A stretch of DNA of 64,000 nucleotides, taken from Escherichia coli. Its GTDB lineage: Bacteria; Pseudomonadota; Gammaproteobacteria; Enterobacterales; Enterobacteriaceae. The first letter of the stretch is position 1. Every line of letters begins with the position of its first letter. The notes beneath the pieces were generated by a model. The model saw nothing but the letters and a program-made list of their open reading frames with translations, was not told the DNA's origin and did not search any database. The position numbers were made by a program, and so were the translations under genes. This document shows positions 13,969 through 60,012 of the stretch, piece after piece. Location of the stretch: the NCBI RefSeq assembly GCF_051903065.1, contig NZ_CP178438.1; one strand, written 5' to 3'.

Positions 13969-14459
13969 TCATGAGTCTTTTGAATGAAGTTCAGAAATTC
14001 ATTGAAGCCCATCCGGGGTGTACTTCCGGAGACATTGCGGATGCTTTTGCAGGTTACTCACGGCAGCGCGTTCTGCAGTCAGCAAGCAAGTTACGTCAGA
14101 GTGGGCGTGTGGCTCACCGTTGTGAAGGAGATACACGCAGACATTTCCCACGCCTGACTGAGAGAGCGCAGGAGCCGGAACCACAACCAGTTCGTGAAAC
14201 CAGACCTGTGCGCAATTTCTATGTCGGCACTAACGATCCCCGGGTGATTTTGTGCCTGACCCGCCAGGCGGAAGAACTGGAGTCCAGGGGCCTATACCGT
14301 CGTGCTGCAACGGTGTGGATGGCGGCATTCCGTGAAAGCCACTCCCAGCCAGAACGAAACAATTTTCTGGTGCGTCGTGAGCAGTGTTTACGGAAAAGCA
14401 GCAAGCGCGCTGTATCGGGTGATGAGTGGTATCTGTCAGGGAATTACGTGGGGGCTTAA
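13965..14459 (+). CDS. hypothetical protein (possible DNA-binding/replication accessory)
   Basis: 164 aa; ATGA overlap with the O-like gene; no family recognised. Confidence 0.4.
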   Translation: MIMSLLNEVQKFIEAHPGCTSGDIADAFAGYSRQRVLQSASKLRQSGRVAHRCEGDTRRHFPRLTERAQEPEPQPVRETRPVRNFYVGTNDPRVILCLTRQAEELESRGLYRRAATVWMAAFRESHSQPERNNFLVRREQCLRKSSKRAVSGDEWYLSGNYVGA

Positions 14460-15112
14460 TGAGTAATAAATATTGCCAGGAGCTGGTGGAACTGCGGAAC
14501 AAACCAGCCCATGAACTGAAGGAAGTGGGTGATCAGTGGCGCACGCCGGACAACATTTTCTGGGGAATTAACACCCTGTTTGGCCCGTTTGTTCTGGATC
14601 TGTTCACTGACGGTGATAACGCCAAATGTGCCGCGTATTACACGGCGGAAGACAACGCGCTGGCGCATGACTGGTCAGAACGCCTTGCGGAGCTTAAAGG
14701 TGCTGCCTTTGGTAATCCTCCATACAGCCGCGCCAGTCAGCATGAGGGGCAATACATCACCGGCATGCGTTACATCATGAAACATGCCAGTGCCATGCGT
14801 GATAAGGGCGGGCGCTATGTTTTCCTGATCAAAGCTGCCACCAGCGAAGTGTGGTGGCCGGAAGATGCAGATCATATTGCTTTTATTCGCGGGCGTATTG
14901 GTTTTGAACTGCCTGTCTGGTTTATCCCGAAAGACGAGAAGCAGGTACCGACAGGAGCTTTTTTCGCTGGTGCTATTGCTGTTTTTGACAAGACCTGGAA
15001 GGGACCGGCAATCAGCTACATCGGGCGCGATGAACTTGAGGCATGTGGTGAGGCGTTTCTGGCGCAGGTTCGCCAGCAGGCGGAAAAACTGGTCAGGGAG
15101 ATGGCGGCATGA
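14459..15112 (+). CDS. phage Dam-type N6-adenine DNA methyltransferase
   Basis: Start at the internal ATG overlapping the upstream stop (TAATG); catalytic ..AFGNPPYSRA.. (NPPY) motif. Confidence 0.7.
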   Translation: MSNKYCQELVELRNKPAHELKEVGDQWRTPDNIFWGINTLFGPFVLDLFTDGDNAKCAAYYTAEDNALAHDWSERLAELKGAAFGNPPYSRASQHEGQYITGMRYIMKHASAMRDKGGRYVFLIKAATSEVWWPEDADHIAFIRGRIGFELPVWFIPKDEKQVPTGAFFAGAIAVFDKTWKGPAISYIGRDELEACGEAFLAQVRQQAEKLVREMAA

Positions 15113-17660: not shown

Positions 17661-18413
17661 ATGAACCTTGAAGCCTTACCAAAATATTACTCCCCAAAAT
17701 CTCCCAAATTGAGCGATGAGGCACCGGCGACAGGCTCGAGTGGTTTAACGATTACGGATGTGATGGCTGCGCAGGGGATGGTGCAGTCGAAAGCACCGCT
17801 TGGGTTTGCCTTATTTCTGGCAAAAGTTGGTGTTCAGGATCCTCAGTTTGCGATTGAAGGTCTGCTCAATTACGCGATGGCACTGGATAACCCGACATTG
17901 AACAAATTGAGTGAAGAAACCCGGTTACAGATCATCCCTTACCTTGTGAATTTTGCCTTTGCTGATTATTCCAGGTCTGCTGCAAGTAAGGCTCGCTGTG
18001 AGCATTGTGCTGGTACTGGATTTCATAATGTATTGCGCGAAGTGGTGAAACACTCCAGAAGCGGGGAATCTGTTATCAAGGAAGAGTGGGTGAAGGAACT
18101 ATGTCAGCATTGTTATGGTAAGGGAGAGGTCAGCACAGCGTGTAGAGGGTGTAAGGGGAAAGGTATTGTACTGGATGAAAAAAGAACCCGGCTTCATGGT
18201 GCGCCTGTTTATAAGGTTTGTGGGCGTTGCAATGGAAACCGGTTTAGCCGTTTACCAACCACACTGGCGCGGCATCATGTCCAGAAGCTGGTACCGGATC
18301 TGACGGATTATCAGTGGTACAAAGGATATGCAGATGTCATTGATAAACTGGTTACAAAGTGCTGGCAGGAAGAAGCATATGCAGAGACACAATTGAGAAA
18401 AGTGACAAGATAA
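17661..18413 (+). CDS. late-gene antiterminator Q-like protein
   Basis: 250 aa with multiple CxxC pairs; placed immediately upstream of a promoter-terminator pair and the lysis cassette. Confidence 0.55.
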   Translation: MNLEALPKYYSPKSPKLSDEAPATGSSGLTITDVMAAQGMVQSKAPLGFALFLAKVGVQDPQFAIEGLLNYAMALDNPTLNKLSEETRLQIIPYLVNFAFADYSRSAASKARCEHCAGTGFHNVLREVVKHSRSGESVIKEEWVKELCQHCYGKGEVSTACRGCKGKGIVLDEKRTRLHGAPVYKVCGRCNGNRFSRLPTTLARHHVQKLVPDLTDYQWYKGYADVIDKLVTKCWQEEAYAETQLRKVTR

Positions 18414-19019: not shown

Positions 19020-20072
19020 ATGAAAAATACTGTAAAAATAAACAGTGTTGATTTAATCAACGCTGATTGCCTGCATTTTATTCAGTCCCTGCCTGATGAT
19101 TCCATTGACCTGATTGTTACCGATCCGCCTTACTTCAAGGTGAAACCTAACGGTTGGGACAATCAGTGGAAAGGGGACGAAGATTACCTTAAGTGGCTGG
19201 ACCACTGTCTGGCCCAGTTCTGGCGGGTGTTGAAACCTGCCGGAAGCCTTTACCTGTTCTGTGGGCATCGCCTGGCATCTGATATTGAGATCATGATGCG
19301 TGAACGTTTCAACGTGCTTAACCATATCATCTGGGCGAAGCCGTCCGGACGTTGGAATGGGTGTAATAAAGAAAGTCTGCGCGCATATTTTCCTGCCACA
19401 GAGCGCGTTCTGTTTGCTGAACATTACCAGGGGCCATATCGCGGCAAAAGTGACGGCTATGCGGCAAAAGAAAGGGAACTCAAACAGCACATAATGGCAC
19501 CGCTGATATCGTATTTCAGGGATGCTCGTGCCGAACTGGGTATAACGGCAAAACAAATTGCCGAAGCCACAGGTAAGAAAAATATGGTTTCCCACTGGTT
19601 TGGTGCCAGTCAGTGGCAGTTGCCGAATGAGGCTGACTATCGGAAGTTACAGGCACTGTTTTCCCGTATAGCGGCAGAGAAGTTTCAGGAACAACAACTG
19701 GAACAACCACACCACCAGCTGGTGGCATCTTATGATTCACTGAATCGCAAATATTCTGAATTGCTGGATGAGTTTAAATCTCTCCGGCGCTATTTCTCCG
19801 TATCAGTCTCCGTGCCTTATACCGATGTCTGGACGCATAAGCCCGTTCAGTTCTACCCGGGTAAACATCCGTGCGAGAAACCGACGGATATGCTCCGGCA
19901 AATAATCAATGCCAGTAGTCGACCTGGTGATCTGGTTGCTGATTTCTTTATGGGATCCGGTTCCACAATAAAAGCAGCAATGGCGCTGGGGCGTCGGGCG
20001 TTAGGTGTTGAACTTGAGTCAGAGCGGTTTAATCAGACGGTGAAAGAGGTAAGTGAACTGGTGGGGAAATAA
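19020..20072 (+). CDS. DNA methyltransferase (beta-class N6-adenine or N4-cytosine; DPPY motif)
   Basis: 350 aa; ..DLIVTDPPYF.. (motif IV) near the N-terminus and ..FFMGSGST.. (motif I) near the C-terminus. Confidence 0.75.
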   Translation: MKNTVKINSVDLINADCLHFIQSLPDDSIDLIVTDPPYFKVKPNGWDNQWKGDEDYLKWLDHCLAQFWRVLKPAGSLYLFCGHRLASDIEIMMRERFNVLNHIIWAKPSGRWNGCNKESLRAYFPATERVLFAEHYQGPYRGKSDGYAAKERELKQHIMAPLISYFRDARAELGITAKQIAEATGKKNMVSHWFGASQWQLPNEADYRKLQALFSRIAAEKFQEQQLEQPHHQLVASYDSLNRKYSELLDEFKSLRRYFSVSVSVPYTDVWTHKPVQFYPGKHPCEKPTDMLRQIINASSRPGDLVADFFMGSGSTIKAAMALGRRALGVELESERFNQTVKEVSELVGK

Positions 20073-20148
20073 TTCTGGTGGCCACGTTGCGTGGCCTTTT
20101 TATTTCCAACACAGCACCCGCAAATATCGCGAGGTGAGAGATGACGAA

Positions 20149-20484
20149 ATGCCTCATAACCCAAATACCTGGCCGGACTGGCTGGAGTTGTTTCAGAGCT
20201 GGTGGCGTGGAGACACACCGCTGGGTGCAGTGATTATGTCGATCGTTATGGCTGGTTTGCGCATCGCCTATTTTGGCGGTGGTGGTGGCTGGAAGCGAAA
20301 AACGCTCGAGATTTTGCTCTGTGGCGCTCTGACGCTGACCTTTGCATCCGCTCTTGAATATGTCGGATGGCCTAAATCGCTTTCTGTTGCCATTGGTGGT
20401 GGCGTGGGGCTGATCGGTGTCGATGCTATTCGTGGGGCTGCAATGCGAGTAATCGGTAACAAATTTGGTAGCTCGAAGGAGTAA
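20149..20484 (+). CDS. holin
   Basis: 111 aa from the internal ATG with RBS; hydrophobic segments and charged C-terminus; immediately upstream of the endolysin. Confidence 0.65.
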   Translation: MPHNPNTWPDWLELFQSWWRGDTPLGAVIMSIVMAGLRIAYFGGGGGWKRKTLEILLCGALTLTFASALEYVGWPKSLSVAIGGGVGLIGVDAIRGAAMRVIGNKFGSSKE

Positions 20485-20487
20485 TTT

Positions 20488-20964
20488 ATGCAGGCACTAA
20501 ATTCCCAGCGTAAAGCTTTCCTGGATATGGTGGCATGGTCAGAAGGAACGGATAACGGGCGACAACCGACACGTAACCACGGTTATGATGTTATTGTTGG
20601 TGGCGAACTGTTCACTGATTACTCCGATCACCCTCGCAAACTTGTCACGCTAAACCCAAAACTCAAATCAACAGCCGCCGGACGTTACCAGCTTCTTTCC
20701 CGTTGGTGGGATGCCTATCGTAAGCAGCTTGGCCTGAAAGACTTCTCTCCGAAAAGCCAGGACGCTGTGGCATTGCAGCAGATTAAGGAGCGTGGCGCTT
20801 TACCGATGATTGATCGCGGTGATATCCGTCAGGCTATCGATCGTTGCAGCAATATCTGGGCGTCGTTACCTGGTGCAGGTTATGGTCAGTATGAACATAA
20901 AATCAGTGATCTGATTTCCCGGTTTAAAGAGGCTGGTGGGGTGGTAAATGAAGTTGAGCTATAA
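20488..20964 (+). CDS. R: endolysin, lambda R-like lytic transglycosylase
   Basis: 158 aa; ..NSQRKAFLDMVAWSEGTDNGRQPTRNHGYDVIVGGELFTDYSDHPRK.. closely matches the recalled lambda R sequence. Confidence 0.9.
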   Translation: MQALNSQRKAFLDMVAWSEGTDNGRQPTRNHGYDVIVGGELFTDYSDHPRKLVTLNPKLKSTAAGRYQLLSRWWDAYRKQLGLKDFSPKSQDAVALQQIKERGALPMIDRGDIRQAIDRCSNIWASLPGAGYGQYEHKISDLISRFKEAGGVVNEVEL

Positions 20965-21340
20965 GCTGGTTATCGCTGCATTCTTCTTTACTGTCATCGG
21001 TTCTTTCATCTGGTCTGCCAACCACTACTACAGCAAATATCAGCACGAAAAGAAACGTGCTGATGAGGCTGTACAAAATGCCAAATCGGCAACTGTCATT
21101 ACCAATAACGTCCTGCAATCACTGCAAATCGTCAATACAGTTCTGGAGGCTAACCAGCATGCAAAACAGCAGATCACACTGGAGTCACAGAGAACCCAGG
21201 AAGATATCAAAGTGGCTGTTGCGGATGATGATTGTGCTTCACGTCCTGTGCCTGCTGCCGCTGCTGACCGGTTGCGGAAGTACGCGAACAGTTTACGTAC
21301 CGATTCCGGCGGTACCGTTGCCAGCAAGCCTGACTACTGA
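20948..21340 (+). CDS. i-spanin (Rz-like)
   Basis: 130 aa with N-terminal TM segment and coiled-coil-like remainder; overlaps the endolysin stop. Confidence 0.7.
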   Translation: MKLSYKLVIAAFFFTVIGSFIWSANHYYSKYQHEKKRADEAVQNAKSATVITNNVLQSLQIVNTVLEANQHAKQQITLESQRTQEDIKVAVADDDCASRPVPAAAADRLRKYANSLRTDSGGTVASKPDY

Positions 21341-21497
21341 AACTCCCCAGCCAGTCATTCCCGAGCCGCTGACCTATGGGGCCAGTCTGGATCTGAATGT
21401 GAGCCTGCTTTCGGCGTTGGGACAATGCAATATTGACAAAGCGGGGATTCGAAGTATCGAGATGCGCCGTAACGCTTTGCTGGCAGCAGGCAAATAG
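21225..21497 (+). CDS. o-spanin (Rz1-like lipoprotein), +1 frame overlapping Rz
   Basis: MMIVLHVLCLLPLLTGCGS.. lipobox (LTGC), Pro-rich mature region; starts inside Rz and extends beyond it. Confidence 0.65.
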   Translation: MMIVLHVLCLLPLLTGCGSTRTVYVPIPAVPLPASLTTETPQPVIPEPLTYGASLDLNVSLLSALGQCNIDKAGIRSIEMRRNALLAAGK

Positions 21498-21523: not shown

Positions 21524-21874
21524 ATGCCCCCTCGAACTCCAAAAGCCTGCCGCGTTCGCGGCTGCCGTAATACCACGACAGACCCGTCAGGCTACTGCGA
21601 AAGCCACAAAAGCGAAGGCTGGAAGCAATACAAGTCAGGACAATCCCGTCATCAGCGCGGTTATGGTTCTAAGTGGGATGTTATCCGTGTGCGTGTGCTG
21701 CAACGTGACAAAGGCCTGTGTCAGTTATGTCTGCGTGCCGGTGTGGCGCGTGAAGCGAAAACCGTTGACCACATCATCCCTAAAGCACATGGCGGCACTG
21801 ATGCCGACAGTAATCTGCAGAGTCTGTGCTGGCCGTGTCATAAGGCGAAGACGGCCCGTGAACGGCTTAAGTGA
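21524..21874 (+). CDS. HNH endonuclease (terminase-associated)
   Basis: 116 aa; ..CQLCLRAG....VDHIIPKAHGGTDADSNLQSLCWPCHKAKT.. HNH motif; just upstream of terminase. Confidence 0.8.
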   Translation: MPPRTPKACRVRGCRNTTTDPSGYCESHKSEGWKQYKSGQSRHQRGYGSKWDVIRVRVLQRDKGLCQLCLRAGVAREAKTVDHIIPKAHGGTDADSNLQSLCWPCHKAKTARERLK

Positions 21875-21999
21875 TAATAACTCTCAACTGTCTGAGGGGA
21901 GGGGCGGGTCAAATCTCTGTGACCTGACGTCTTCCGGACTGCCCGCCCCATCGTTTTTTTATACCCGCGAAAAATGAAATTTAACCAGGAGTGCCGCAT

Positions 22000-22494
22000 A
22001 TGGCTGGAACGGCGGGGCGTTCCGGGCGTCGCCCCAAGCCAACGGCGCGCAAGGCGCTGGCCGGAAACCCCGGCAAGCGAGCCCTGAACAAAGATGAACC
22101 TGTTTTTACGCCCATCAAAGGGGTTGAGCCACCGGAGTGGTTCGCAGAAGAAGATCTCCCTCTCGCTACGATCATGTGGCAACTGACAACTAAAGAACTC
22201 TGCGGTCAGGGTCTGCTGTGCGTGACTGACCTCGCGGTGCTTGAGCGGTGGTGCGTGGCCTACGAGTTCTGGCGACGTGCCGTGAAAAATATTGCCAGAC
22301 AGGGCAACACCATCACCGGTGCAATGGGCGGTATGGTCAAAAATCCGGAGCTGACCGCCAAAAAAGAACAGGAGTCCGAGATGAGCAGTACGGGGGCAAT
22401 GCTCGGACTCGACCCCAGCAGCCGCCAGCGTCTGATTGGCCTGGCGGGGCAGAAGAAAGCCACTAACCCGTTTCTGAAAATCATCGAATCATGA
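22000..22494 (+). CDS. terminase small subunit
   Basis: ATG at 22000, 9 nt after AGGAG; ~165 aa; directly upstream of and overlapping the terminase large subunit. Confidence 0.7.
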
Positions 22495-24224
22495 GCCGGA
22501 AATCTTACCCCAACGTAAATGCTGCCAATCAGTATGCCCGTGATGTCGTGCGCGGAAAGATTGTGGCCTGCCAGTTTGTGATTCAGGCCTGCCAGCGCCA
22601 TCTTGATGACCTGATGGAGGAAAAAAGTAAGTCGTTTCGTTACCGCTTCGACAAGGACCTGGCTGAACGGGCCGCGAAATTTATTCAGCTGTTGCCGCAC
22701 ACCAAGGGTGAGTGGGCATTTAAACGGATGCCCATCACGCTGGAGCCGTGGCAGCTATTTGTGATCTGCTGTGCGTTTGGCTGGGTCAATAAAGGCACCC
22801 GGTTGCGCCGCTTCCGGGAGGTGTATACCGAAATTCCCCGTAAGAACGGCAAATCGGCAATCTCTGCCGGTGTTGCCCTGTATTGTTTTGCCTGTGATAA
22901 CGAGTTCGGCGCGGAAGTGTATTCCGGTGCCACGACGGAGAAACAGGCATGGGAAGTCTTTCGTCCGGCACGACTGATGTGTAAACGCACACCCATGCTG
23001 ACGGAAGCGTTCGGGATTGAGGTTAACGCCTCAAACATGAACCGTCCGGAGGATGGTGCGCGGTTTGAACCGCTGATCGGTAACCCCGGTGATGGTTCAT
23101 CACCCCACTGTGCCGTGGTGGATGAATATCACGAGCACGCCACAGATGCGCTTTACACCACGATGCTTACCGGGATGGGGGCGCGACGCCAGCCACTGAT
23201 GTGGGCCATTACCACCGCCGGGTACAACATTGAGGGGCCGTGCTACGACAAACGGCGGGAAGTCATCGAGATGCTCAACGGCTCGGTGCCCAACGATGAA
23301 CTGTTCGGGATCATCTATACCGTTGACGAAGGCGACGACTGGACCGACCCGCAGGTACTTGAAAAAGCTAACCCGAATATCGGTGTGTCGGTTTATCGCG
23401 AGTTTTTGTTAAGCCAGCAGCAACGTGCGAAAAATAACGCCCGTCTGGCAAACGTCTTTAAAACAAAACACCTCAATATCTGGGTGTCGGCGCGTTCGGC
23501 GTATTTCAACCTGGTGAGCTGGCAGAGCTGCGAGAATAAATCACTGACCCTTGAGCAGTTTGAGGGGCAGCCGTGCATTCTGGCCTTTGACCTGGCGCGT
23601 AAGCTGGATATGAACAGTATGGCGCGACTTTATACCCGCGAGATTGACGGTAAAACGCATTACTACAGTGTGGCTCCGCGCTTCTGGGTACCGTATGACA
23701 CGGTGTACAGCGTCGAGAAAAATGAAGATCGCCGGACAGCCGAACGCTTTCAGAAATGGGTGGAAATGGGCGTTCTGACCGTTACCGATGGTGCGGAGGT
23801 GGATTATCGCTACATCCTCGAGGAGGCCAAAGCGGCGAACAAAATCAGCCCGGTCAGTGAGTCACCCATCGACCCCTTCGGGGCGACCGGGCTGTCGCAT
23901 GACCTTGCGGATGAAGACCTGAACCCCATCACCATCATTCAGAACTACACCAACATGTCCGACCCGATGAAAGAGCTGGAAGCGGCAATTGAATCGGGGC
24001 GTTTTCATCATGACGGCAATCCCATCATGACCTGGTGTATCGGCAACGTGGTCGGCAAAACCATTCCGGGTAACGATGATGTGGTGAAGCCCGTCAAGGA
24101 GCAGGCGGAAAACAAAATTGATGGTGCAGTTGCGCTGATTATGGCGGTTGGCAGAGCCATGCTGTACGAGAAAGAAGACACGCTGTCTGATCACATTGAG
24201 TCCTACGGGATCCGCTCGCTTTAA
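22491..24224 (+). CDS. terminase large subunit
   Basis: 577 aa; size, position and ATPase/nuclease-like organisation. Confidence 0.8.
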
Positions 24225-39471: not shown

Positions 39472-40512
39472 ATGCATCGTATAGACACGAAAACCGCGCA
39501 GAAGGATAAGTTCGGCGCGGGTAAGAACGGTTTTACCCGTGGTAACCCCCAGACCGGCACACCTGCCACCGATCTGGATGATGACTACTTTGACATGTTG
39601 CAGGAGGAGCTTTGCAGCGTTGTGGAGGCATCAGGTGCCAGCCTGGAGAAGGGGCGGCATGACCAGTTACTTACCGCACTTCGCGCGCTGCTGTTAAGCC
39701 GCAAGAATCCGTTTGGCGATATCAAATCGGATGGCACGGTGAAAACAGCTCTCGAAAACCTTGGTTTGGCTAATTACGCAGACAAAGCAAGTCTGGCGAA
39801 TCAGGAGTTTTCTGGTCCCGTATCATCTAAAGACTGCGTTACCGCAACATCGGCAGATGGGGTAACCCGCAAAGTATCGCTTAATGCCAGTACGGGTTTG
39901 AAGATAGTTATTTATGATGGCGGAACTTACAAGGGGGCAATAAACATCCCGGCAAAAGACGGGACAATGGCACTTGTATCTGATTTGGCTAATTTTGCTG
40001 ATAAATTGAGTGCTTCTGAGCAATATTTTAAAGGACCTGTTTCATCCGGGGATGGGCTCATAGCAAAATATGGCACCGCAAAAATAATTCTGTCAGCCCA
40101 AAACGGTCAGAGAATTGTTGTTTATACAAACGACACTTACCGTGGAGCTATTAATATTCCACTTCGTGACGGAACTATGGCGCTCCTGGATGATGTTACT
40201 AATGTTAGCGCAACGCTGCTGGGTATATCTCAGTCATGGCAGAACGTGAAAGCCAGCCGTAGTGCCGGGGTTACGTATACCAACTCAACAGGCAGGCCCA
40301 TTGCAGTTTCAATCGCCGGAATAATGGCAACACGTCAGAATGGAGTTCAGTTGTCACTTGCCGTTAATGGCACAGAGGCTTCAAGTTTTGCCGTGACTGA
40401 CAGCTCGTTTGACATCAGGGGTAACGTATTTGCGATTGTGCCACCAGGAGCAACTTACAAACTTACAGCAAATAACATTAATTCTATTTTGACCTGGTCG
40501 GAGCTTCGCTAA
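39472..40512 (+). CDS. tail fibre protein
   Basis: 346 aa; conserved tail-fibre N-terminus ([47 protein letters not shown]..) and internal ~60-aa repeats. Confidence 0.75.
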
Positions 40513-40889
40513 TGAATACGGTAATCAAAGAGCAAAAATTCTTTAAGGACTCGGCCGGTGTGATTTTTTGCATCGACATCATGGAAATGAATGCTGAGTC
40601 ATGGGGTGAAGAAGTACAGGCCGGATGGCAGGAAATTAGTGCCGATGAAGCGCTATTAATTGCTAATCCACCGCCTACAGAGGAACAGCTATTTGAACAG
40701 GTTAGGGCGCAGAAACAGGCCCTGATTTCCGAGGCGACTGCAATTATAGATCCACTTAAGGATGCACTGGATGGTGGCTATATCGACGATGCAGACAAAC
40801 CAAGACTGACTGAATGGCAAAAGTACCGCTATGAGGTGACGAAAGTTGATCCGGGAAAACCTGTGTGGCCACCGAAGCCTACAGAATAG
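40512..40889 (+). CDS. tail fibre assembly protein (short)
   Basis: 125 aa directly after the fibre gene with ATGA overlap. Confidence 0.6.
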   Translation: MNTVIKEQKFFKDSAGVIFCIDIMEMNAESWGEEVQAGWQEISADEALLIANPPPTEEQLFEQVRAQKQALISEATAIIDPLKDALDGGYIDDADKPRLTEWQKYRYEVTKVDPGKPVWPPKPTE

Positions 40890-40964
40890 GAACATTTTTT
40901 ATAACCATCAAAAATCTGGTGATATTTCGCCTCTTCTCCTGTTTTTACAACAGGAGAAGCACTC

Positions 40965-41528
40965 ATGATTTACGGGTATGTTCGTGTATCAACAAATCAT
41001 CAGGATACAGAGTTGCAACGTCTTGCACTTGAGTCAGCTGGCTGTGAGCGAATTTATGAAGAATATGCCAGTGGCAGAACAGCTAATCGCCCTGTGTTAA
41101 AGGAATTAATTACGGTGATGAAAAGTGGAGATGAGTTGATTGTCTGGAAGTTAGATCGGATAGGGAGAAATGTGCTGCATGCGCTATTTATGTTTCAAAA
41201 TCTGCACGAAAAAGGTGTTAATTTTCGGAGTATTACAGATGGCGTAGACCTGAAAACAGCAAGTGGTCGCTATAATTTCCGTAATATTCTTTCTGCTGCG
41301 CAGTATGAATCTGATTTGAATAGCGAGCGAACTTTAGCTGGTTTGGCTATTGCCAGATCCAAAGGCCGGATTGGTGGGCGTAGACCGAAGTTTAGCGACG
41401 AGCAGTGGCAACAGATGGGAGCGCTCATAGCGGCAGGGAAATCACGGCGTTATGTTGCACGTATCTATAACGTTGGGCTATCAACCCTATATAAACGATT
41501 TCCTGTTACTGGCATTCAAACGAAATAA
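40965..41528 (+). CDS. Pin/Gin/Hin-family serine DNA invertase
   Basis: 187 aa; MIYGYVRVSTNHQDTELQ.. with catalytic Ser in YVRVST and C-terminal HTH. Confidence 0.9.
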   Translation: MIYGYVRVSTNHQDTELQRLALESAGCERIYEEYASGRTANRPVLKELITVMKSGDELIVWKLDRIGRNVLHALFMFQNLHEKGVNFRSITDGVDLKTASGRYNFRNILSAAQYESDLNSERTLAGLAIARSKGRIGGRRPKFSDEQWQQMGALIAAGKSRRYVARIYNVGLSTLYKRFPVTGIQTK

Positions 41529-41981: not shown

Positions 41982-43079
41982 TCAAGAGGCCTTATTTCTG
42001 CTCCTTTGGAGCTCTTCAAAACGATTATGTAAAGATTTCGGATACAGTTCGGTATATACCTGCCATAGCACGTTTAATGAACGATGCCCTGTAACCTGGG
42101 CGACTTCCTCAATACTAAAACCAGCCTCAAATAAGCGACTTGCCCCTTCTCTACGCAAATCATGGTATCGCAGATCTTTAATACCTAATTTGCTTCTTAC
42201 CCTCTGGAATCCCGCAGTAACAGAAGTGCTGTTATATGGAAAAATGAATTCTGATTTTTTGGGTTGTCGTTGGACGATATCCCAGGCTTCCCCAAGCAAG
42301 GCTACTTTCATATGGTTGCCTTCCTTTTTACGTGGATCTTTCCTGTCTCTTACGAGTATGGATTTTTGTTCCTGATCGAGATCCTCCCATCGTAATCGGC
42401 ATACTTCACCGATTCGCATACATGACCACACAGAAAATTTGAGGATATCAACGAACGGAATTTTTGAGCATTTATGTGTAGATCGTTGTTGAAGACCTTC
42501 AATGAGCATGTCCAGTTCATCAGATGCCGGTCTACGATTACGACGATTTGATTTACCAATTAAACCAAGTTTAAGTAGATATGGACGAGCGGCTTTTGCT
42601 GGGTTTGATGTGTAATTAATTCCATATACAGGTTTGGCAGCATCCAGAACACTGCCAAGATAACTAACATCGTGGCTAACTGTAGCTGGACCTGCACCAG
42701 CGTTGTTTCTTAGCCTGCAATGTTCAATTACGTCATTTTCTGTCAGTTCAGATAGTTTGAGCGCGGAGACGTCACTATCCATAAGCAGTTCCAGCACATA
42801 TCTTTTAGTACGGCCTGCTTTACCTCCGGCATTTGGGTCATTTAAATATTTGTGTAGTAAGTCACGGACTGTAAGTCCGTCAACTGCATTTGATGATGGA
42901 ATGCCATATAGATCTAATTCCATCACTTTCTGTGTGCCCCATGTTTTGGCATGAGCATGTTTAGGGAATGTTTTACTTTCCCTGTAAGTGATAACACCTT
43001 TTTCTTTGATAATCACATTACAGCGATAGCGTGGTGTGCCATCGGATTTTAGTCGTTTCTCTATGTTATAGTATGCCAT
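41982..43079 (-). CDS. tyrosine integrase (dusA-targeting type)
   Basis: 365 aa; C-terminal ..HDLRREGASRLFEAGFSIEEVAQVTGHRSLNVLWQVYTELY with R..H..R..Y-type catalytic residues; abuts the dusA 5' end. Confidence 0.9.
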   Translation of the reverse strand: MAYYNIEKRLKSDGTPRYRCNVIIKEKGVITYRESKTFPKHAHAKTWGTQKVMELDLYGIPSSNAVDGLTVRDLLHKYLNDPNAGGKAGRTKRYVLELLMDSDVSALKLSELTENDVIEHCRLRNNAGAGPATVSHDVSYLGSVLDAAKPVYGINYTSNPAKAARPYLLKLGLIGKSNRRNRRPASDELDMLIEGLQQRSTHKCSKIPFVDILKFSVWSCMRIGEVCRLRWEDLDQEQKSILVRDRKDPRKKEGNHMKVALLGEAWDIVQRQPKKSEFIFPYNSTSVTAGFQRVRSKLGIKDLRYHDLRREGASRLFEAGFSIEEVAQVTGHRSLNVLWQVYTELYPKSLHNRFEELQRSRNKAS

Positions 43080-43160
43080 TACACGACCTCGTTATTTCGG
43101 GTTCCCATAAAACGTGGGAACCTGTGCGGGAACCTAACGCGAGAAAAATAGCCTGAAATG

Positions 43161-43271
43161 TTCAAAAATGCACGATAATCATGAAACACAAAAAATTAAT
43201 CAAACCAGCGTGATGCCTGAAAAAACTGGTGTTTACTGGAATTCTCGGTTTAGCATTGCTCCTATGCTCGA
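43161..43271. repeat. attR-side dusA 5' sequence (imperfect direct repeat of 4751-4861)
   Basis: Alignment by eye; this copy is fused in frame to the dusA body. Confidence 0.7.
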
Positions 43272-44205
43272 CTGGACGGACAGACATTGCCGCTATTTCT
43301 TGCGTCTGCTTTCCCGCAATACGTTGCTGTATACCGAAATGGTGACTACAGGGGCGATTATTCACGGTAAAGGTGATTATCTGGCGTACAGTGAAGAAGA
43401 ACATCCGGTAGCGTTGCAACTGGGCGGTAGCGATCCGGCGGCGCTGGCGCAGTGTGCGAAGCTGGCAGAAGCGCGCGGATATGATGAGATCAACCTGAAT
43501 GTCGGCTGCCCGTCTGACCGGGTGCAGAACGGCATGTTTGGTGCGTGTCTGATGGGTAATGCGCAGCTGGTTGCCGACTGCGTGAAAGCGATGCGCGATG
43601 TGGTGTCGATTCCGGTGACGGTGAAAACGCGTATTGGCATCGATGATCAGGACAGCTATGAATTTCTCTGCGATTTCATCAACACCGTTTCCGGCAAAGG
43701 CGAGTGTGAGATGTTCATCATCCATGCACGTAAAGCCTGGCTTTCGGGGTTAAGCCCGAAAGAAAACCGTGAAATCCCGCCGCTCGATTATCCGCGTGTG
43801 TATCAACTGAAGCGTGACTTTCCGCATCTGACAATGTCCATTAACGGTGGCATCAAGTCGCTGGAAGAAGCTAAAGCGCATTTGCAACATATGGATGGCG
43901 TGATGGTCGGGCGCGAGGCGTATCAGAATCCGGGTATTCTGGCGGCGGTAGACCGGGAGATCTTTGGTTCCTCGGATACCGATGCCGATCCGGTTGCGGT
44001 AGTGCGCGCCATGTATCCGTACATTGAGCGTGAACTCAGCCAGGGGACGTATCTCGGCCATATTACCCGGCATATGCTGGGCTTGTTCCAGGGTATTCCT
44101 GGCGCGCGGCAGTGGCGGCGTTATTTAAGTGAAAATGCCCATAAAGCGGGTGCAGACATTAATGTGCTGGAACACGCGCTCAAACTGGTGGCGGATAAGC
44201 GTTAA
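43168..44205 (+). CDS. dusA: tRNA-dihydrouridine synthase A
   Basis: 345 aa; TIM-barrel Dus motifs (..[18 protein letters not shown].., ..NLNVGCPS..); conserved position next to pspG. Confidence 0.9.
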
Positions 44206-59002: not shown

Positions 59003-59467
59003 ATGGAAAAGAAATTACCCCGCATTAAAGCGCTGCTAACCCCCGGCGAAGTGGCGAAACGCAGCGGTGTGGCGGTATCGGCGCTGCATTTCTATGAAAG
59101 CAAAGGGTTGATTACCAGTGTCCGTAATAGCGGCAATCAGCGCCGATATAAACGTGATGTGTTGCGATATGTCGCAATTATCAAAATTGCTCAGCGTATT
59201 GGCATTCCGCTGGCGACCATTGGTGAAGCGTTTGGCGTGTTGCCCGAAGGGCATACGTTAAGTGCGAAAGAGTGGAAACAGCTTTCGTCCCAATGGCGAG
59301 AAGAGTTGGATCGGCGCATTCATACCTTAGTGGCGCTGCGTGACGAACTGGATGGATGTATTGGTTGTGGCTGCCTTTCGCGCAGTGATTGCCCGTTGCG
59401 TAACCCGGGCGACCGCTTAGGAGAAGAAGGTACCGGCGCACGCTTACTGGAAGATGAACAAAACTAA
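59003..59467 (+). CDS. soxR: MerR-family redox sensor SoxR
   Basis: 154 aa; HTH N-terminus and C-terminal [12 protein letters not shown] [2Fe-2S] motif. Confidence 0.95.
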
Positions 59468-59495
59468 AGCGCCACAAGGGCGCTTTAGTTTGTTT
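59465..59495 (+). terminator. rho-independent terminator after soxR
   Basis: AAAGCGCC-acaag-GGCGCTTT followed by a T-rich run. Confidence 0.65.
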
Positions 59496-60012
59496 TCCGG
59501 TCTTTGTCTTTCTCTCTATCCCGCTGGTACACAGGAGGGTTTCCCCCGACGTCAACACACCTCATTCGAGCACGTGGTGGAGGTTCCGGTTGGTGTTGAT
59601 GCTTTAATTGTATGTCACCGGCGTTTCTTCGCCAGTGTAAAAGTATACTTTTTAGCCGCAATATTTTTGTCATCTCAGACGATTTTTTATCGCAATCCAG
59701 AACGGTGTACGGCTCGATAACGCTGCAATCTTGCGCATCGACGATAACGTTTGCGCATCAATTGCCTGGTTTTTCATCGTCAAGACAATAAAAGAGAAAA
59801 AAGCAGCAAACTTCGGTTGAAAAAGCCGCTATGATCGCCGGATAATCGTTTGCTTTTTTTACCACCCGTTTTGTATGCGCGGAGCTAAACGTTTGCTTTT
59901 TTGCGACGCACCAAATTGTCGCAAACCTGGAGCAGGAAGATAACGTTTCGCTGGCAGGGGATTGTCCGCCACGCATCTTGACGAAAATTAAACTCTCAGG
60001 GGATGTTTTCTT

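What the first reader, a model, noticed from the sequence alone, without database searches (positions are those of the whole stretch)
20948..21497. Spanin pair in overlapped (not embedded) architecture
The lipoprotein ORF with lipobox LTGC starts in the +1 frame inside the Rz-like gene (21225) but extends 157 nt beyond its stop, unlike the fully embedded lambda Rz1.
Basis: partly seen in the sequence, partly recalled or inferred. Interest (0 to 1): 0.25.

Follow-up and report, generated by a model that had tools for sequence, protein, structure and literature searches.

The report
Ordinary overlapped phage spanin gene pair
This is the standard two-gene "spanin" module that an SfV-like prophage of E. 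coli uses to break the outer membrane at lysis; its partly overlapping gene layout is real but is the commonest known layout and is already catalogued for this phage family.

Summary
An i-spanin gene (20948-21340, 130 aa) is overlapped in the +1 frame by a lipoprotein ORF (lipobox LLTG|C, Cys codon 21273-21275) that ends at 21497, 157 nt past the i-spanin stop. The interpretation also holds. The pair sits after a lambda-type holin and endolysin in the late operon of an SfV-like prophage at dusA. It is about 96% identical to phage SfV, where Rz and Rz1 are annotated. Kongari et al. 2018 list SfV and SfIV as "overlapped", the commonest spanin architecture (228 of 528 two-component systems). The o-spanin belongs to the Mu gp23.1 family (PF23793), whose spanin function was shown experimentally in Mu.

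One correction: the o-spanin most likely starts at ATG 21159, not 21225. That gives a 112-aa precursor and a 182-nt overlap. The evidence is a conserved Shine-Dalgarno 9 nt upstream, loss of i-frame wobble variation between the two ATGs, and APSE-7, where this is the only possible start. The mature 74-aa lipoprotein is the same either way.

Verdict: already known and ordinary, low interest.

The parts
20080..20106 (+). Terminator-like hairpin (GGCCACG-TTG-CGTGGCC plus a T-run) between the DNA methylase and the holin. The late transcript from the Q-type antiterminator gene (17661-18413) must read through it.
   Evidence: The same site is annotated as a putative rho-independent terminator in SfV. 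Read-through is inferred by analogy with lambda tR'.
20149..20484 (+). Holin, lambda S family (111 aa).
   Evidence: PF05106 at 3e-27; TIGR01594 holin_lambda at 125.9 bits against a cut-off of 55; phrog_126.
20488..20964 (+). Endolysin, lambda R type (158 aa). It overlaps the i-spanin start by 17 nt.
   Evidence: 89% identical to lambda R over 158 aa; phrog_90 at 3e-64.
20948..21340 (+). i-spanin (Rz-like, 130 aa). It has K2/K6, then an N-terminal TMD (about residues 3-25), a long periplasmic helix, the conserved Cys96-x4-PVPA-x-A-x3-L motif, a second helix at 103-119 and a disordered tail.
   Evidence: phrog_214 at 4e-47. 89% identical to SfV Rz. KD hydropathy maximum 1.92 at residues 3-21. 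AF2 gives helix 2-92, a break at 93-102 and helix 103-119, mean pLDDT 74. C96 is invariant across SfV, Mulock, Yersinia, APSE, D108 and Providencia relatives.
21145..21149 (+). Shine-Dalgarno GGAGG, 9 nt upstream of ATG 21159.
   Evidence: 57 of 58 unique related copies keep at least 4 nt of the SD core 8-9 nt upstream of this ATG. The exception is a truncated remnant. APSE-7 (GGGAG) and YenM_29.18 (AAGG) keep it in different i-frame amino-acid contexts. It is annotated as an RBS in phage Mulock.
21159..21497 (+). o-spanin precursor, best-supported extent (112 aa), in the +1 frame relative to the i-spanin. It overlaps the i-spanin by 182 nt and extends 157 nt beyond it. The 38-residue lipoprotein signal has n-region 1-22 (net +5), h-region 23-35 and lipobox LLTG|C.
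   Evidence: PF23793 LysC at 9.4e-18. The same extent is annotated in SfV, by PGAP in the 100%-identical E. coli genome, in Kongari 2018 suppl. file 5 and in Mulock.
21225..21230 (+). It is conserved but has no Shine-Dalgarno. It is an alternative or secondary initiation site.
   Evidence: 57 of 58 copies have no SD-core match of 4 nt or more within 22 nt upstream. It is GTG-ATG in one copy and GTG-ACG in another, and absent in APSE-7 and YenM_29.18.
21273..21494 (+). Mature o-spanin (74 aa), the same whichever start is used. It has an N-terminal lipidated Cys with Gly at +2 (outer-membrane sorting), an extended Pro-rich linker, and a C-terminal helix carrying the invariant C-N-x-D-K-x3-R motif (second Cys codon 21426-21428).
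   Evidence: In 119 homologues the mature protein has exactly two Cys, at positions 1 and 52. Residue +2 is G in 110 of 119 and never D. AF2 gives an extended stretch at precursor residues 37-72 and helix 73-111 with pLDDT 83-93. It is 47-51% identical to the Mu/D108/APSE o-spanins.

Best explanation
This is the outer-membrane-disruption module (a two-component spanin) of the lysis cassette of an SfV-like prophage integrated at dusA in E. coli.

At late times the Q-antiterminated transcript expresses holin, endolysin, i-spanin and o-spanin in turn. The i-spanin (20948-21340) inserts in the inner membrane by its N-terminal TMD (N-in, C-out) and projects a long helical stalk into the periplasm. 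The o-spanin is translated in the +1 frame, most likely from ATG 21159. It is exported by Sec, lipidated and cleaved at Cys39 by the lipoprotein pathway, and sorted by Lol to the inner leaflet of the outer membrane (Gly at +2).

The periplasmic C-terminal regions of the two proteins bind each other, and each probably forms a disulfide-linked homodimer through its single conserved periplasmic Cys. The complex spans the periplasm through the peptidoglycan mesh. When the holin triggers and the lambda-R-type endolysin degrades the wall, the complexes are freed to collapse and fuse inner and outer membranes, completing lysis.

Shown here: gene anatomy, family membership, conservation of the arrangement, dual-frame selection and start-site evidence. 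Inferred from lambda and Mu work: complex formation, disulfide dimers and membrane fusion.
For: Context:
- The pair lies directly after a lambda-family holin and an 89%-lambda-R endolysin, and before HNH and terminase.
- The cassette is about 96% identical to SfV, where Rz/Rz1 are annotated. SfIV and SfII annotate the same pair as i-/o-spanin.

Families:
- i-spanin: phrog_214 at 4e-47.
- o-spanin: PF23793 at 64.3 bits (cut-off 27) and phrog_456 at 3e-27.
- 396 and 739 homologues across Enterobacteriaceae.

Architecture:
- In every related copy examined the Cys codon starts 68 nt before the end of the i-spanin gene, and the o-spanin extends 133-166 nt beyond it.
- More distant relatives (D108, APSE-7, YenM_29.18, Providencia phage, Klebsiella 3LV2017) are also overlapped.

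Selection:
- i-only segment: pS 0.456, pN/pS 0.41.
- +1 frame over that same segment (control): 0.98.
- Overlap coding the mature o-spanin: o-frame 0.40 against i-frame 1.20.
- o-only segment: 0.20.

Start at 21159:
- SD core 8-9 nt upstream in 57 of 58 copies; none before 21225.
- i-frame third positions are variable in 66 of 70 codons upstream but only 10 of 22 between the two ATGs (Fisher p = 2e-6). i-frame pS falls to 0.041 there, and o-frame pN/pS is 0.36.
- In APSE-7 it is the only available start.
- The expert CPT annotation of Mulock uses it, with an RBS.

Anatomy:
- One TMD in the i-spanin, lipobox in the o-spanin, no Asp at +2, one conserved periplasmic Cys in each partner.
- AF2 secondary structure fits.

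Function in the family:
- Mu gp23/gp23.1 amber mutants give the spanin-defect spherical-cell phenotype and are complemented by lambda RzRz1 (PMC9239132).
- Kongari 2018 places the SfV/SfIV o-spanins in the Mu family and classes them 'ovl'.
Against: - No experiment has been done on this allele or on SfV itself. Function is transferred from Mu (o-spanin 47-50% identical, i-spanin about 29%) and from lambda (no significant similarity beyond the TMD and signal regions).
- With the 21159 start the lipobox Cys is at position 39, outside the 15-35 range of the PROSITE PS51257-style rule as I recall and applied it. A 22-residue n-region is unusually long.
- The segment between the two ATGs is only 22 codons with few substitutions, so its pN/pS values are noisy. 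The number of variable columns per codon position there is flat (8, 9, 10).
- The related loci were retrieved using o-spanin peptides, which may depress diversity near the signal-peptide region.
- The i-spanin scores just below the Pfam DUF2570 cut-off (23.9 against 26.6), and NCBIfam has no model hit for either spanin.
- Whether this prophage is inducible was not assessed.
Confidence: 0.93

Rival explanations
1. It is the same spanin pair, but the o-spanin is translated from the proximal ATG 21225 (or TTG 21219 / ATG 21228). That gives a conventional 16-18-residue lipoprotein signal and a 116-122-nt overlap. The distal ATG is an accident of the i-spanin His-Ala codons.
For: - The ATG-ATG is conserved in 56 of 58 copies.
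- Cys at 17-19 fits the 15-35 rule. The TTG 21219 start also supplies an Arg in the n-region.
- Many database entries (P0001, P0003 and others) and PGAP in some genomes use it.
- Kongari file 4 lists SfIV's o-spanin as 93 aa.
Against: - There is no SD before it in 57 of 58 copies, while the distal ATG has one in 57 of 58.
- i-frame wobble variation is suppressed between the two ATGs.
- APSE-7 and YenM_29.18 have no Met, GTG or TTG at that position but keep the distal ATG at exactly Cys-38.
- One copy has GTG-ACG there.
- With ATG 21225 the n-region has no positive charge.
Confidence: 0.18
2. Both starts are used, giving two precursor forms with different n-regions (as in the lambda S105/S107 dual-start logic). 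This would tune the rate or timing of o-spanin export.
For: Both initiation codons are conserved across the E. coli, Citrobacter, Enterobacter and Klebsiella copies. The 22-residue n-region looks constrained in the +1 frame (pN/pS 0.36).
Against: - The mature product would be identical, so any effect could only be kinetic.
- The proximal start is absent in APSE and Yersinia relatives and lacks an SD.
- No precedent for this was found in the spanin literature read here.
Confidence: 0.1
3. The +1 ORF is a chance open frame and only the Rz-like protein is real.
For: Given the i-spanin protein sequence, the +1 frame stays open in 71% of synonymous recodings. Lipobox-like strings occur by chance about 1.4 times per window.
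Against: - PF23793 at 64 bits.
- The 157-nt o-only extension has pN/pS 0.20, and within the overlap the o-frame is the better conserved.
- The lipobox and C-N-x-D-K-x3-R motif are invariant out to Mu and APSE.
- There is experimental proof for the Mu homologue.
Confidence: 0.01

Closest known systems
Shigella/E. coli phage SfV Rz/Rz1 (and SfIV, SfII)
   Same: - About 96% nucleotide identity over the whole cassette.
- i-spanin 89% and o-spanin 97% identical.
- Identical geometry: 130-aa i-spanin, Cys 68 nt before the i-spanin end, 157 nt of o-only sequence.
- Listed as 'ovl' in Kongari 2018.
   Different: Only point substitutions. Here the prophage sits at dusA in an E. coli chromosome.
Phage Mu gp23/gp23.1 (and D108), experimentally validated overlapped spanins
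   Same: - Overlapped +1 arrangement directly after the endolysin.
- o-spanin 47-50% identical, with the same LLTGC lipobox and C-N-x-D-K-x3-R C-terminal motif.
- The i-spanin shares the C-x4-PVPA-x-A-x3-L motif, which is encoded in the overlap.
   Different: - The i-spanins are only about 29% identical, and Kongari places them in separate families.
- In D108 the Cys lies 56 nt (not 68) before the i-spanin end, and the signal is shorter (Cys at about 28).
- Mu uses a SAR endolysin plus a releasin; here there is a lambda-type holin and soluble R-type endolysin.
Phage P2 LysB/LysC, the textbook 'overlapped' prototype and namesake of Pfam PF23793
   Same: - Same architecture class.
- The o-spanin passes the PF23793 LysC model.
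- PGAP names it 'Rz1-like lysis system protein LysC'.
- A P2-like Klebsiella phage (3LV2017) carries a closer relative in the same layout.
   Different: No pairwise BLASTP similarity to P2 LysB or LysC (E = 5.9 and 0.88).
Phage lambda Rz/Rz1, the embedded prototype
   Same: - Same position after S and R. The R here is 89% identical to lambda R.
- Same +1 frame relationship.
- Same topology: a type II inner-membrane protein plus an outer-membrane lipoprotein.
- Conserved periplasmic Cys residues.
   Different: - Rz1 is fully embedded in Rz; here the o-spanin runs 157 nt past the i-spanin stop.
- There is no significant homology beyond the TMD and signal regions and no hit to the lambda Rz or Rz1 Pfam families.
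- The mature o-spanin is longer and has a confident C-terminal helix. From my own knowledge, lambda Rz1 is about 40 aa, Pro-rich and unstructured.

Membership tests
Two-component spanin (functional class; Summer 2007, from my own knowledge, and Kongari 2018) | The i-spanin has a single N-terminal TMD (type II, N-in/C-out) and a largely helical periplasmic domain. | tested here: met
   KD-19 maximum 1.92 at residues 3-21, with K2/K6 on the N-side. AF2 gives helix 2-92 and helix 103-119. Kongari file 4 lists a coiled coil at 30-61 for the 89%-identical SfV protein.
Two-component spanin | The o-spanin has a lipoprotein signal with a lipobox Cys and no inner-membrane retention signal (Asp at +2). 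| tested here: met
   LLTG|C with a hydrophobic h-region. Residue +2 is Gly here and is G/A/T/E, never D, in 119 homologues. LipoP and SignalP were not available; a PROSITE-style rule was applied instead.
Two-component spanin | The genes lie adjacent to or overlapping each other in the lysis cassette next to the endolysin, with the o-spanin in the +1 frame when overlapping. | tested here: met
   The order is holin, endolysin, i-spanin and o-spanin.
Two-component spanin | The two subunits form a periplasm-spanning complex required for outer-membrane disruption (spherical-cell phenotype in Mg2+ when defective). | not testable with these tools
   Shown for the homologous Mu gp23/gp23.1 (PMC9239132). 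Not tested for this allele.
'Overlapped' architecture class (Kongari 2018) | The o-spanin gene starts inside the i-spanin gene and extends beyond its stop. | tested here: met
   The start is at 21159 or 21225, both before 21340. The stop at 21497 is after 21340. SfV and SfIV are listed as 'ovl'.
Pfam PF23793 LysC (Rz1-like lysis system protein) | Score at or above the gathering threshold (27 bits). | tested here: met
   64.3 bits, E = 9.4e-18, profile positions 2-66 of 69.
Pfam PF10828 DUF2570 (the i-spanin family used by PGAP) | Score at or above the gathering threshold (26.6 bits). | tested here: inconclusive
   23.9 bits, just below the cut-off. All 120 listed homologues carry precomputed PF10828.15 hits, and PGAP names close relatives DUF2570.
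Kongari 'Mu' o-spanin family (Mu, D108, ENT47670, SfIV, SfV, APSE-1/2) | Sequence homology of the mature o-spanin to family members. | tested here: met
   tblastn gives 47-51% identity over about 91-93% of the mature protein to Mu, D108 and APSE.
Lambda Rz / Rz1 sequence families (embedded class) | Homology to lambda Rz and Rz1, and the o-spanin gene wholly inside the i-spanin gene. | tested here: not met
   No Pfam hit to the lambda Rz or Rz1 families at E <= 0.01. BLASTP similarity is confined to the TMD (20 aa) and the signal region. The gene is not embedded.

The most novel reading that the evidence does not exclude
The unusually long (38-residue) o-spanin signal peptide may be a functional element in its own right. 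Its positively charged 22-residue n-region is conserved from E. coli prophages to APSE of aphid symbionts and looks constrained in the +1 frame. It could act, for example, as a kinetic brake or regulator of o-spanin export, possibly through two alternative starts (21159 and 21225). The alternative is that it is only a by-product of where a usable ATG and SD could evolve inside the i-spanin gene.
Probability: 0.1. Interest if true: 0.3.

Novelty: already known. Interest (0 to 1): 0.05.

Why it matters
It matters little for discovery. The module, its family and its architecture are all catalogued, and the function has been shown for the Mu homologue.

The practical value is for annotation:
- The RefSeq annotation of the genome whose spanin region is 100% identical calls the o-spanin (lysC) but omits the i-spanin gene altogether.
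- Public records disagree on the o-spanin start (82 to 144 aa).
- The comparative evidence here favours ATG 21159 and shows that both genes should be annotated.

Tried and rejected
- P2 LysB/LysC as direct homologues: rejected. BLASTP found nothing, although the Pfam LysC profile matches.
- Lambda Rz/Rz1 homology: only the TMD and signal regions align.
- NCBIfam: no model for either spanin.
- Rz::Rz1 frame-fusion proteins. phrog_214 matched the i-spanin at profile positions 7-131 and the o-spanin C-terminus at 133-175, which suggested fusions.
  - The 172-aa homologue P0234 has an unrelated tail.
  - Klebsiella phage 3LV2017, where the o-spanin match lies under a single annotated 'Rz-like spanin', simply has an unannotated overlapped o-spanin.
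  - No fusion was found, and the PHROG double match stays unexplained.
- In-frame stop codons between the two candidate starts as a discriminator: none in any copy, so this test was uninformative.
- ORF length and lipobox occurrence as statistical evidence: not significant on their own.
- The window's own genome was not found. The best match over the first 25 kb is 98.8%, and the genome with the 100%-identical spanin region drifts by 8 nt downstream.
- tRNA scan: none in the window.

Full report

Yes. The sequence and the ORF table show the following:
- An ORF at 20948-21340 (130 aa).
- An ORF in its +1 frame, open from 21057 to 21497.
- ATG-ATG at 21225/21228, where (21225-20948) mod 3 = 1.
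- The string MMIVLHVLCLLPLLTGC, with the Cys codon at 21273-21275.
- The second ORF ends 157 nt after the stop of the first, as stated.

The bare observation is not statistically impressive. Given the i-spanin protein, 71% of synonymous recodings keep the +1 frame open over the last 182 nt. A PROSITE-like lipobox pattern with a plausible start occurs 7 times in the window, against 1.4 in shuffles. The case rests on family matches, context and conservation.

**2. What is it?**

The window is E. coli chromosome (lexA-dinF-zur side) carrying a prophage of about 38 kb integrated at dusA. The integrase is at 41982-43079 on the minus strand and dusA is at 43168-44205.

The finding sits in the prophage late operon. 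The gene order is:
1. Q-type antiterminator (17661-18413).
2. DNA methylase (19020-20072).
3. A terminator-like hairpin (20080-20106, annotated in SfV).
4. Lambda-family holin (20149-20484; TIGR01594 at 126 bits).
5. An endolysin 89% identical to lambda R (20488-20964).
6. The two ORFs of the finding.
7. HNH endonuclease and terminase.

Family and database evidence:
- The first ORF hits phrog_214 'Rz-like spanin' at 4e-47.
- The second hits Pfam PF23793 'Rz1-like lysis system protein LysC' at 64.3 bits (cut-off 27) and phrog_456.
- The cassette is about 96% identical to Shigella phage SfV, whose record annotates S, R, Rz and Rz1 in exactly this layout. SfIV and SfII annotate 'i-spanin' and 'o-spanin'.
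- The 550 bases of the finding are 100% identical to E. coli CP8-3_Sichuan and are present in 716 of 5426 complete E. coli genomes.
- Protein searches find 396 o-spanin and 739 i-spanin relatives across Escherichia, Salmonella, Citrobacter, Enterobacter, Kluyvera, Leclercia and Edwardsiella.

**3. Is the arrangement conserved and selected?**

Related copies were analysed from 80 IMG/VR loci, the reference phages and the E. coli genomes. In every copy where both genes are present:
- The lipobox Cys codon begins exactly 68 nt before the end of the i-spanin gene.
- The o-spanin continues 133-166 nt beyond it.

Nucleotide diversity by codon position shows the expected pattern (i-frame positions 1/2/3):

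| Segment | Diversity |
|---|---|
| i-only | 0.21 / 0.14 / 0.32 |
| Overlap coding the mature o-spanin | 0.20 / 0.12 / 0.09 |

In the overlap, variation peaks at the o-frame third position.

Nei-Gojobori estimates agree:

| Segment and frame | pN/pS |
|---|---|
| i-only, i-frame | 0.41 |
| Same DNA, +1 frame (control) | 0.98 |
| Overlap, mature o-spanin, o-frame | 0.40 |
| Overlap, mature o-spanin, i-frame | 1.20 |
| o-only, o-frame | 0.20 |

So the +1 gene is under purifying selection, and it dominates the constraint where the genes overlap. This matches Kongari et al.'s remark that i-spanins diverge in the part encoded by the overlap.

**4. Where does the o-spanin start?**

Public records disagree:
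- SfV, PGAP for this sequence, Kongari file 5 for SfV, and the expert-curated Klebsiella phage Mulock use the upstream ATG (window 21159; 112 aa, 182-nt overlap).
- Other records use the proximal ATG, a TTG, or the longest ORF.

The evidence favours 21159:
- **Ribosome-binding site.** GGAGG lies at 21145-21149, 9 nt upstream. 57 of 58 unique copies keep at least 4 nt of the SD core at 8-9 nt, although the flanks diverge. The proximal ATG-ATG has no such match in 57 of 58.
- **Wobble suppression.** i-frame third positions are variable in 66 of 70 codons upstream of 21159 but in only 10 of 22 between the two ATGs (Fisher p = 2e-6). i-frame pS falls from 0.456 to 0.041 there. The +1 frame shows pN/pS 0.36 against 1.24 for the i-frame.
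- **Distant relatives.** In APSE-7 the only ATG, GTG or TTG upstream of the lipobox is the equivalent ATG (Cys at 39, overlap 182, GGGAG 9 nt upstream). Yersinia phage YenM_29.18 keeps it too. Neither has the proximal Met.

Caveats:
- The 22-codon segment has few substitutions.
- The variable-column counts per codon position there are flat (8, 9, 10).
- Cys at position 39 lies outside the classical 15-35 range.

I put about 0.75 on 21159 as the main start. The mature 74-aa lipoprotein is identical whichever start is used.

**5. Anatomy and mechanism**

The i-spanin:
- K2/K6, then one TMD at about residues 3-25.
- AF2 predicts a continuous helix 2-92, a break at 93-102 around the invariant Cys96 and PVPA motif, a second helix at 103-119, and a disordered tail (pLDDT 74).

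The o-spanin:
- A signal helix.
- An extended Pro-rich stretch at mature residues 1-34.
- A confident C-terminal helix (pLDDT 83-93) carrying the invariant C-N-x-D-K-x3-R motif.
- The mature protein always has exactly two Cys, the lipidated one and Cys52. Residue +2 is never Asp, so outer-membrane sorting is expected.

By analogy with lambda Rz/Rz1 (my own knowledge of the Young-lab work, and the model summarised in PMC6139136), the two proteins form a complex across the periplasm. Once the endolysin has removed the peptidoglycan, the complex fuses the inner and outer membranes.

For the homologous Mu pair gp23/gp23.1, this role has been shown. The 23.1 amber mutant gives spherical cells in Mg2+ and is complemented by lambda RzRz1 (PMC9239132). 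Complex formation, disulfide dimers and fusion are inferred here, not shown.

**6. Comparison with the known**

Kongari et al. 2018 surveyed 677 phage genomes. They found 528 two-component spanins: 182 embedded, 228 overlapped and 118 separated. Overlapped is the commonest class, with P2 LysB/LysC as its prototype.

Their tables list SfV and SfIV as 'ovl'. They place the SfV/SfIV i-spanins in a two-member group, and the o-spanins in the 'Mu' family with Mu, D108, ENT47670 and APSE-1/2. I confirmed these points:
- The mature o-spanin is 47-51% identical to Mu, D108 and APSE, and 72% to Mulock.
- The i-spanins of D108 and APSE share the C-terminal motif that is encoded in the overlap.
- There is no pairwise similarity to P2 LysB/LysC.
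- Similarity to lambda Rz/Rz1 is limited to the TMD and signal regions.

The cassette is a mosaic: lambda-type S and R joined to SfV/Mu-type spanins.

**7. Verdict**

The finding is correct and ordinary. It is a known spanin pair in the commonest known architecture, in a known phage family. The only refinements are the likely start at 21159 and the inconsistency of public annotation.

Interest is 0.05 and novelty is 'already known'. The most novel reading left open is a specific role for the long conserved n-region, or for dual starts, of the o-spanin signal peptide. I give that a probability of about 0.1, and it would be of modest interest even if true.

Noticed in passing
window 20948-21340 (RefSeq NZ_CP053736.1 4705351-4705743): In the RefSeq (PGAP) annotation of the genome whose spanin region is 100% identical, the o-spanin is called (lysC, 21159-21497) but the i-spanin gene is not annotated at all. 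In genomes where PGAP starts lysC at the proximal ATG, the i-spanin is annotated as 'DUF2570 domain-containing protein'. The o-spanin start varies between records, giving 82 to 144 aa.
   Followed up: partly
window 20948-21497; PHROG profile phrog_214: phrog_214 (profile length 176) matches the i-spanin at profile positions 7-131 and the C-terminal part of the o-spanin (residues 38-80) at 133-175. This looks as if some family members were Rz::Rz1 frame fusions. The two candidates checked (P0234 and Klebsiella phage 3LV2017) are not fusions, so the double match is unexplained.
   Followed up: partly
window about 21032-21064: Many lambdoid phage records (HK633, HK106, several vB_Eco phages) match holin, endolysin and only the first 85-117 nt of the i-spanin gene (its TMD), then diverge. 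This suggests a recombination joint just after the TMD-coding part of the i-spanin. The endolysin is 89% identical to lambda R, while the spanins are SfV/Mu-type.
   Followed up: partly
L098 (Klebsiella phage 3LV2017, NC_047817.1) about locus 700-975: This P2-like phage has an unannotated o-spanin (…LLVLCALLSLTAC|TSAP…CNADKAGIR…) in the +1 frame. It overlaps and extends past the annotated 'Rz-like spanin', another case of a missed overlapped o-spanin.
   Followed up: yes
window 41982-44205 and about 4.5 kb: The prophage is integrated at dusA. A tyrosine integrase (41982-43079, minus strand) abuts dusA (43168-44205). In the related genome a short dusA fragment is annotated at the other prophage end.
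   Followed up: partly
window 39472-41528: A resolvase/Gin-type serine invertase (40965-41528) lies next to tail-fibre and oppositely oriented tail-fibre-assembly genes. This suggests an invertible host-range segment like Mu G or P1 C.
   Followed up: no
window 5117-5689 and neighbours: A SocA/Panacea-domain antitoxin-like protein (PF13274, 2e-19) lies near the left prophage end. In the related genome a YafO-family toxin gene is annotated beside the corresponding position, so this is a likely toxin-antitoxin cargo.
   Followed up: no
window 21524-24224: An HNH endonuclease lies immediately upstream of the P27-family small terminase and the large terminase. From my own knowledge this arrangement is typical of HK97-like cos packaging modules.
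   Followed up: no
window 59460-59600 (minus strand): The sraL Hfq-binding sRNA (Rfam RF01408, 153 bits) lies in the chromosomal flank. No tRNA genes occur anywhere in the window.
   Followed up: no
window 14426-15112 and 19020-20072: The prophage encodes two DNA methyltransferases: an N6-adenine methylase in the early region, and a PF01555 N6/N4 methylase between the Q gene and the holin.
   Followed up: no
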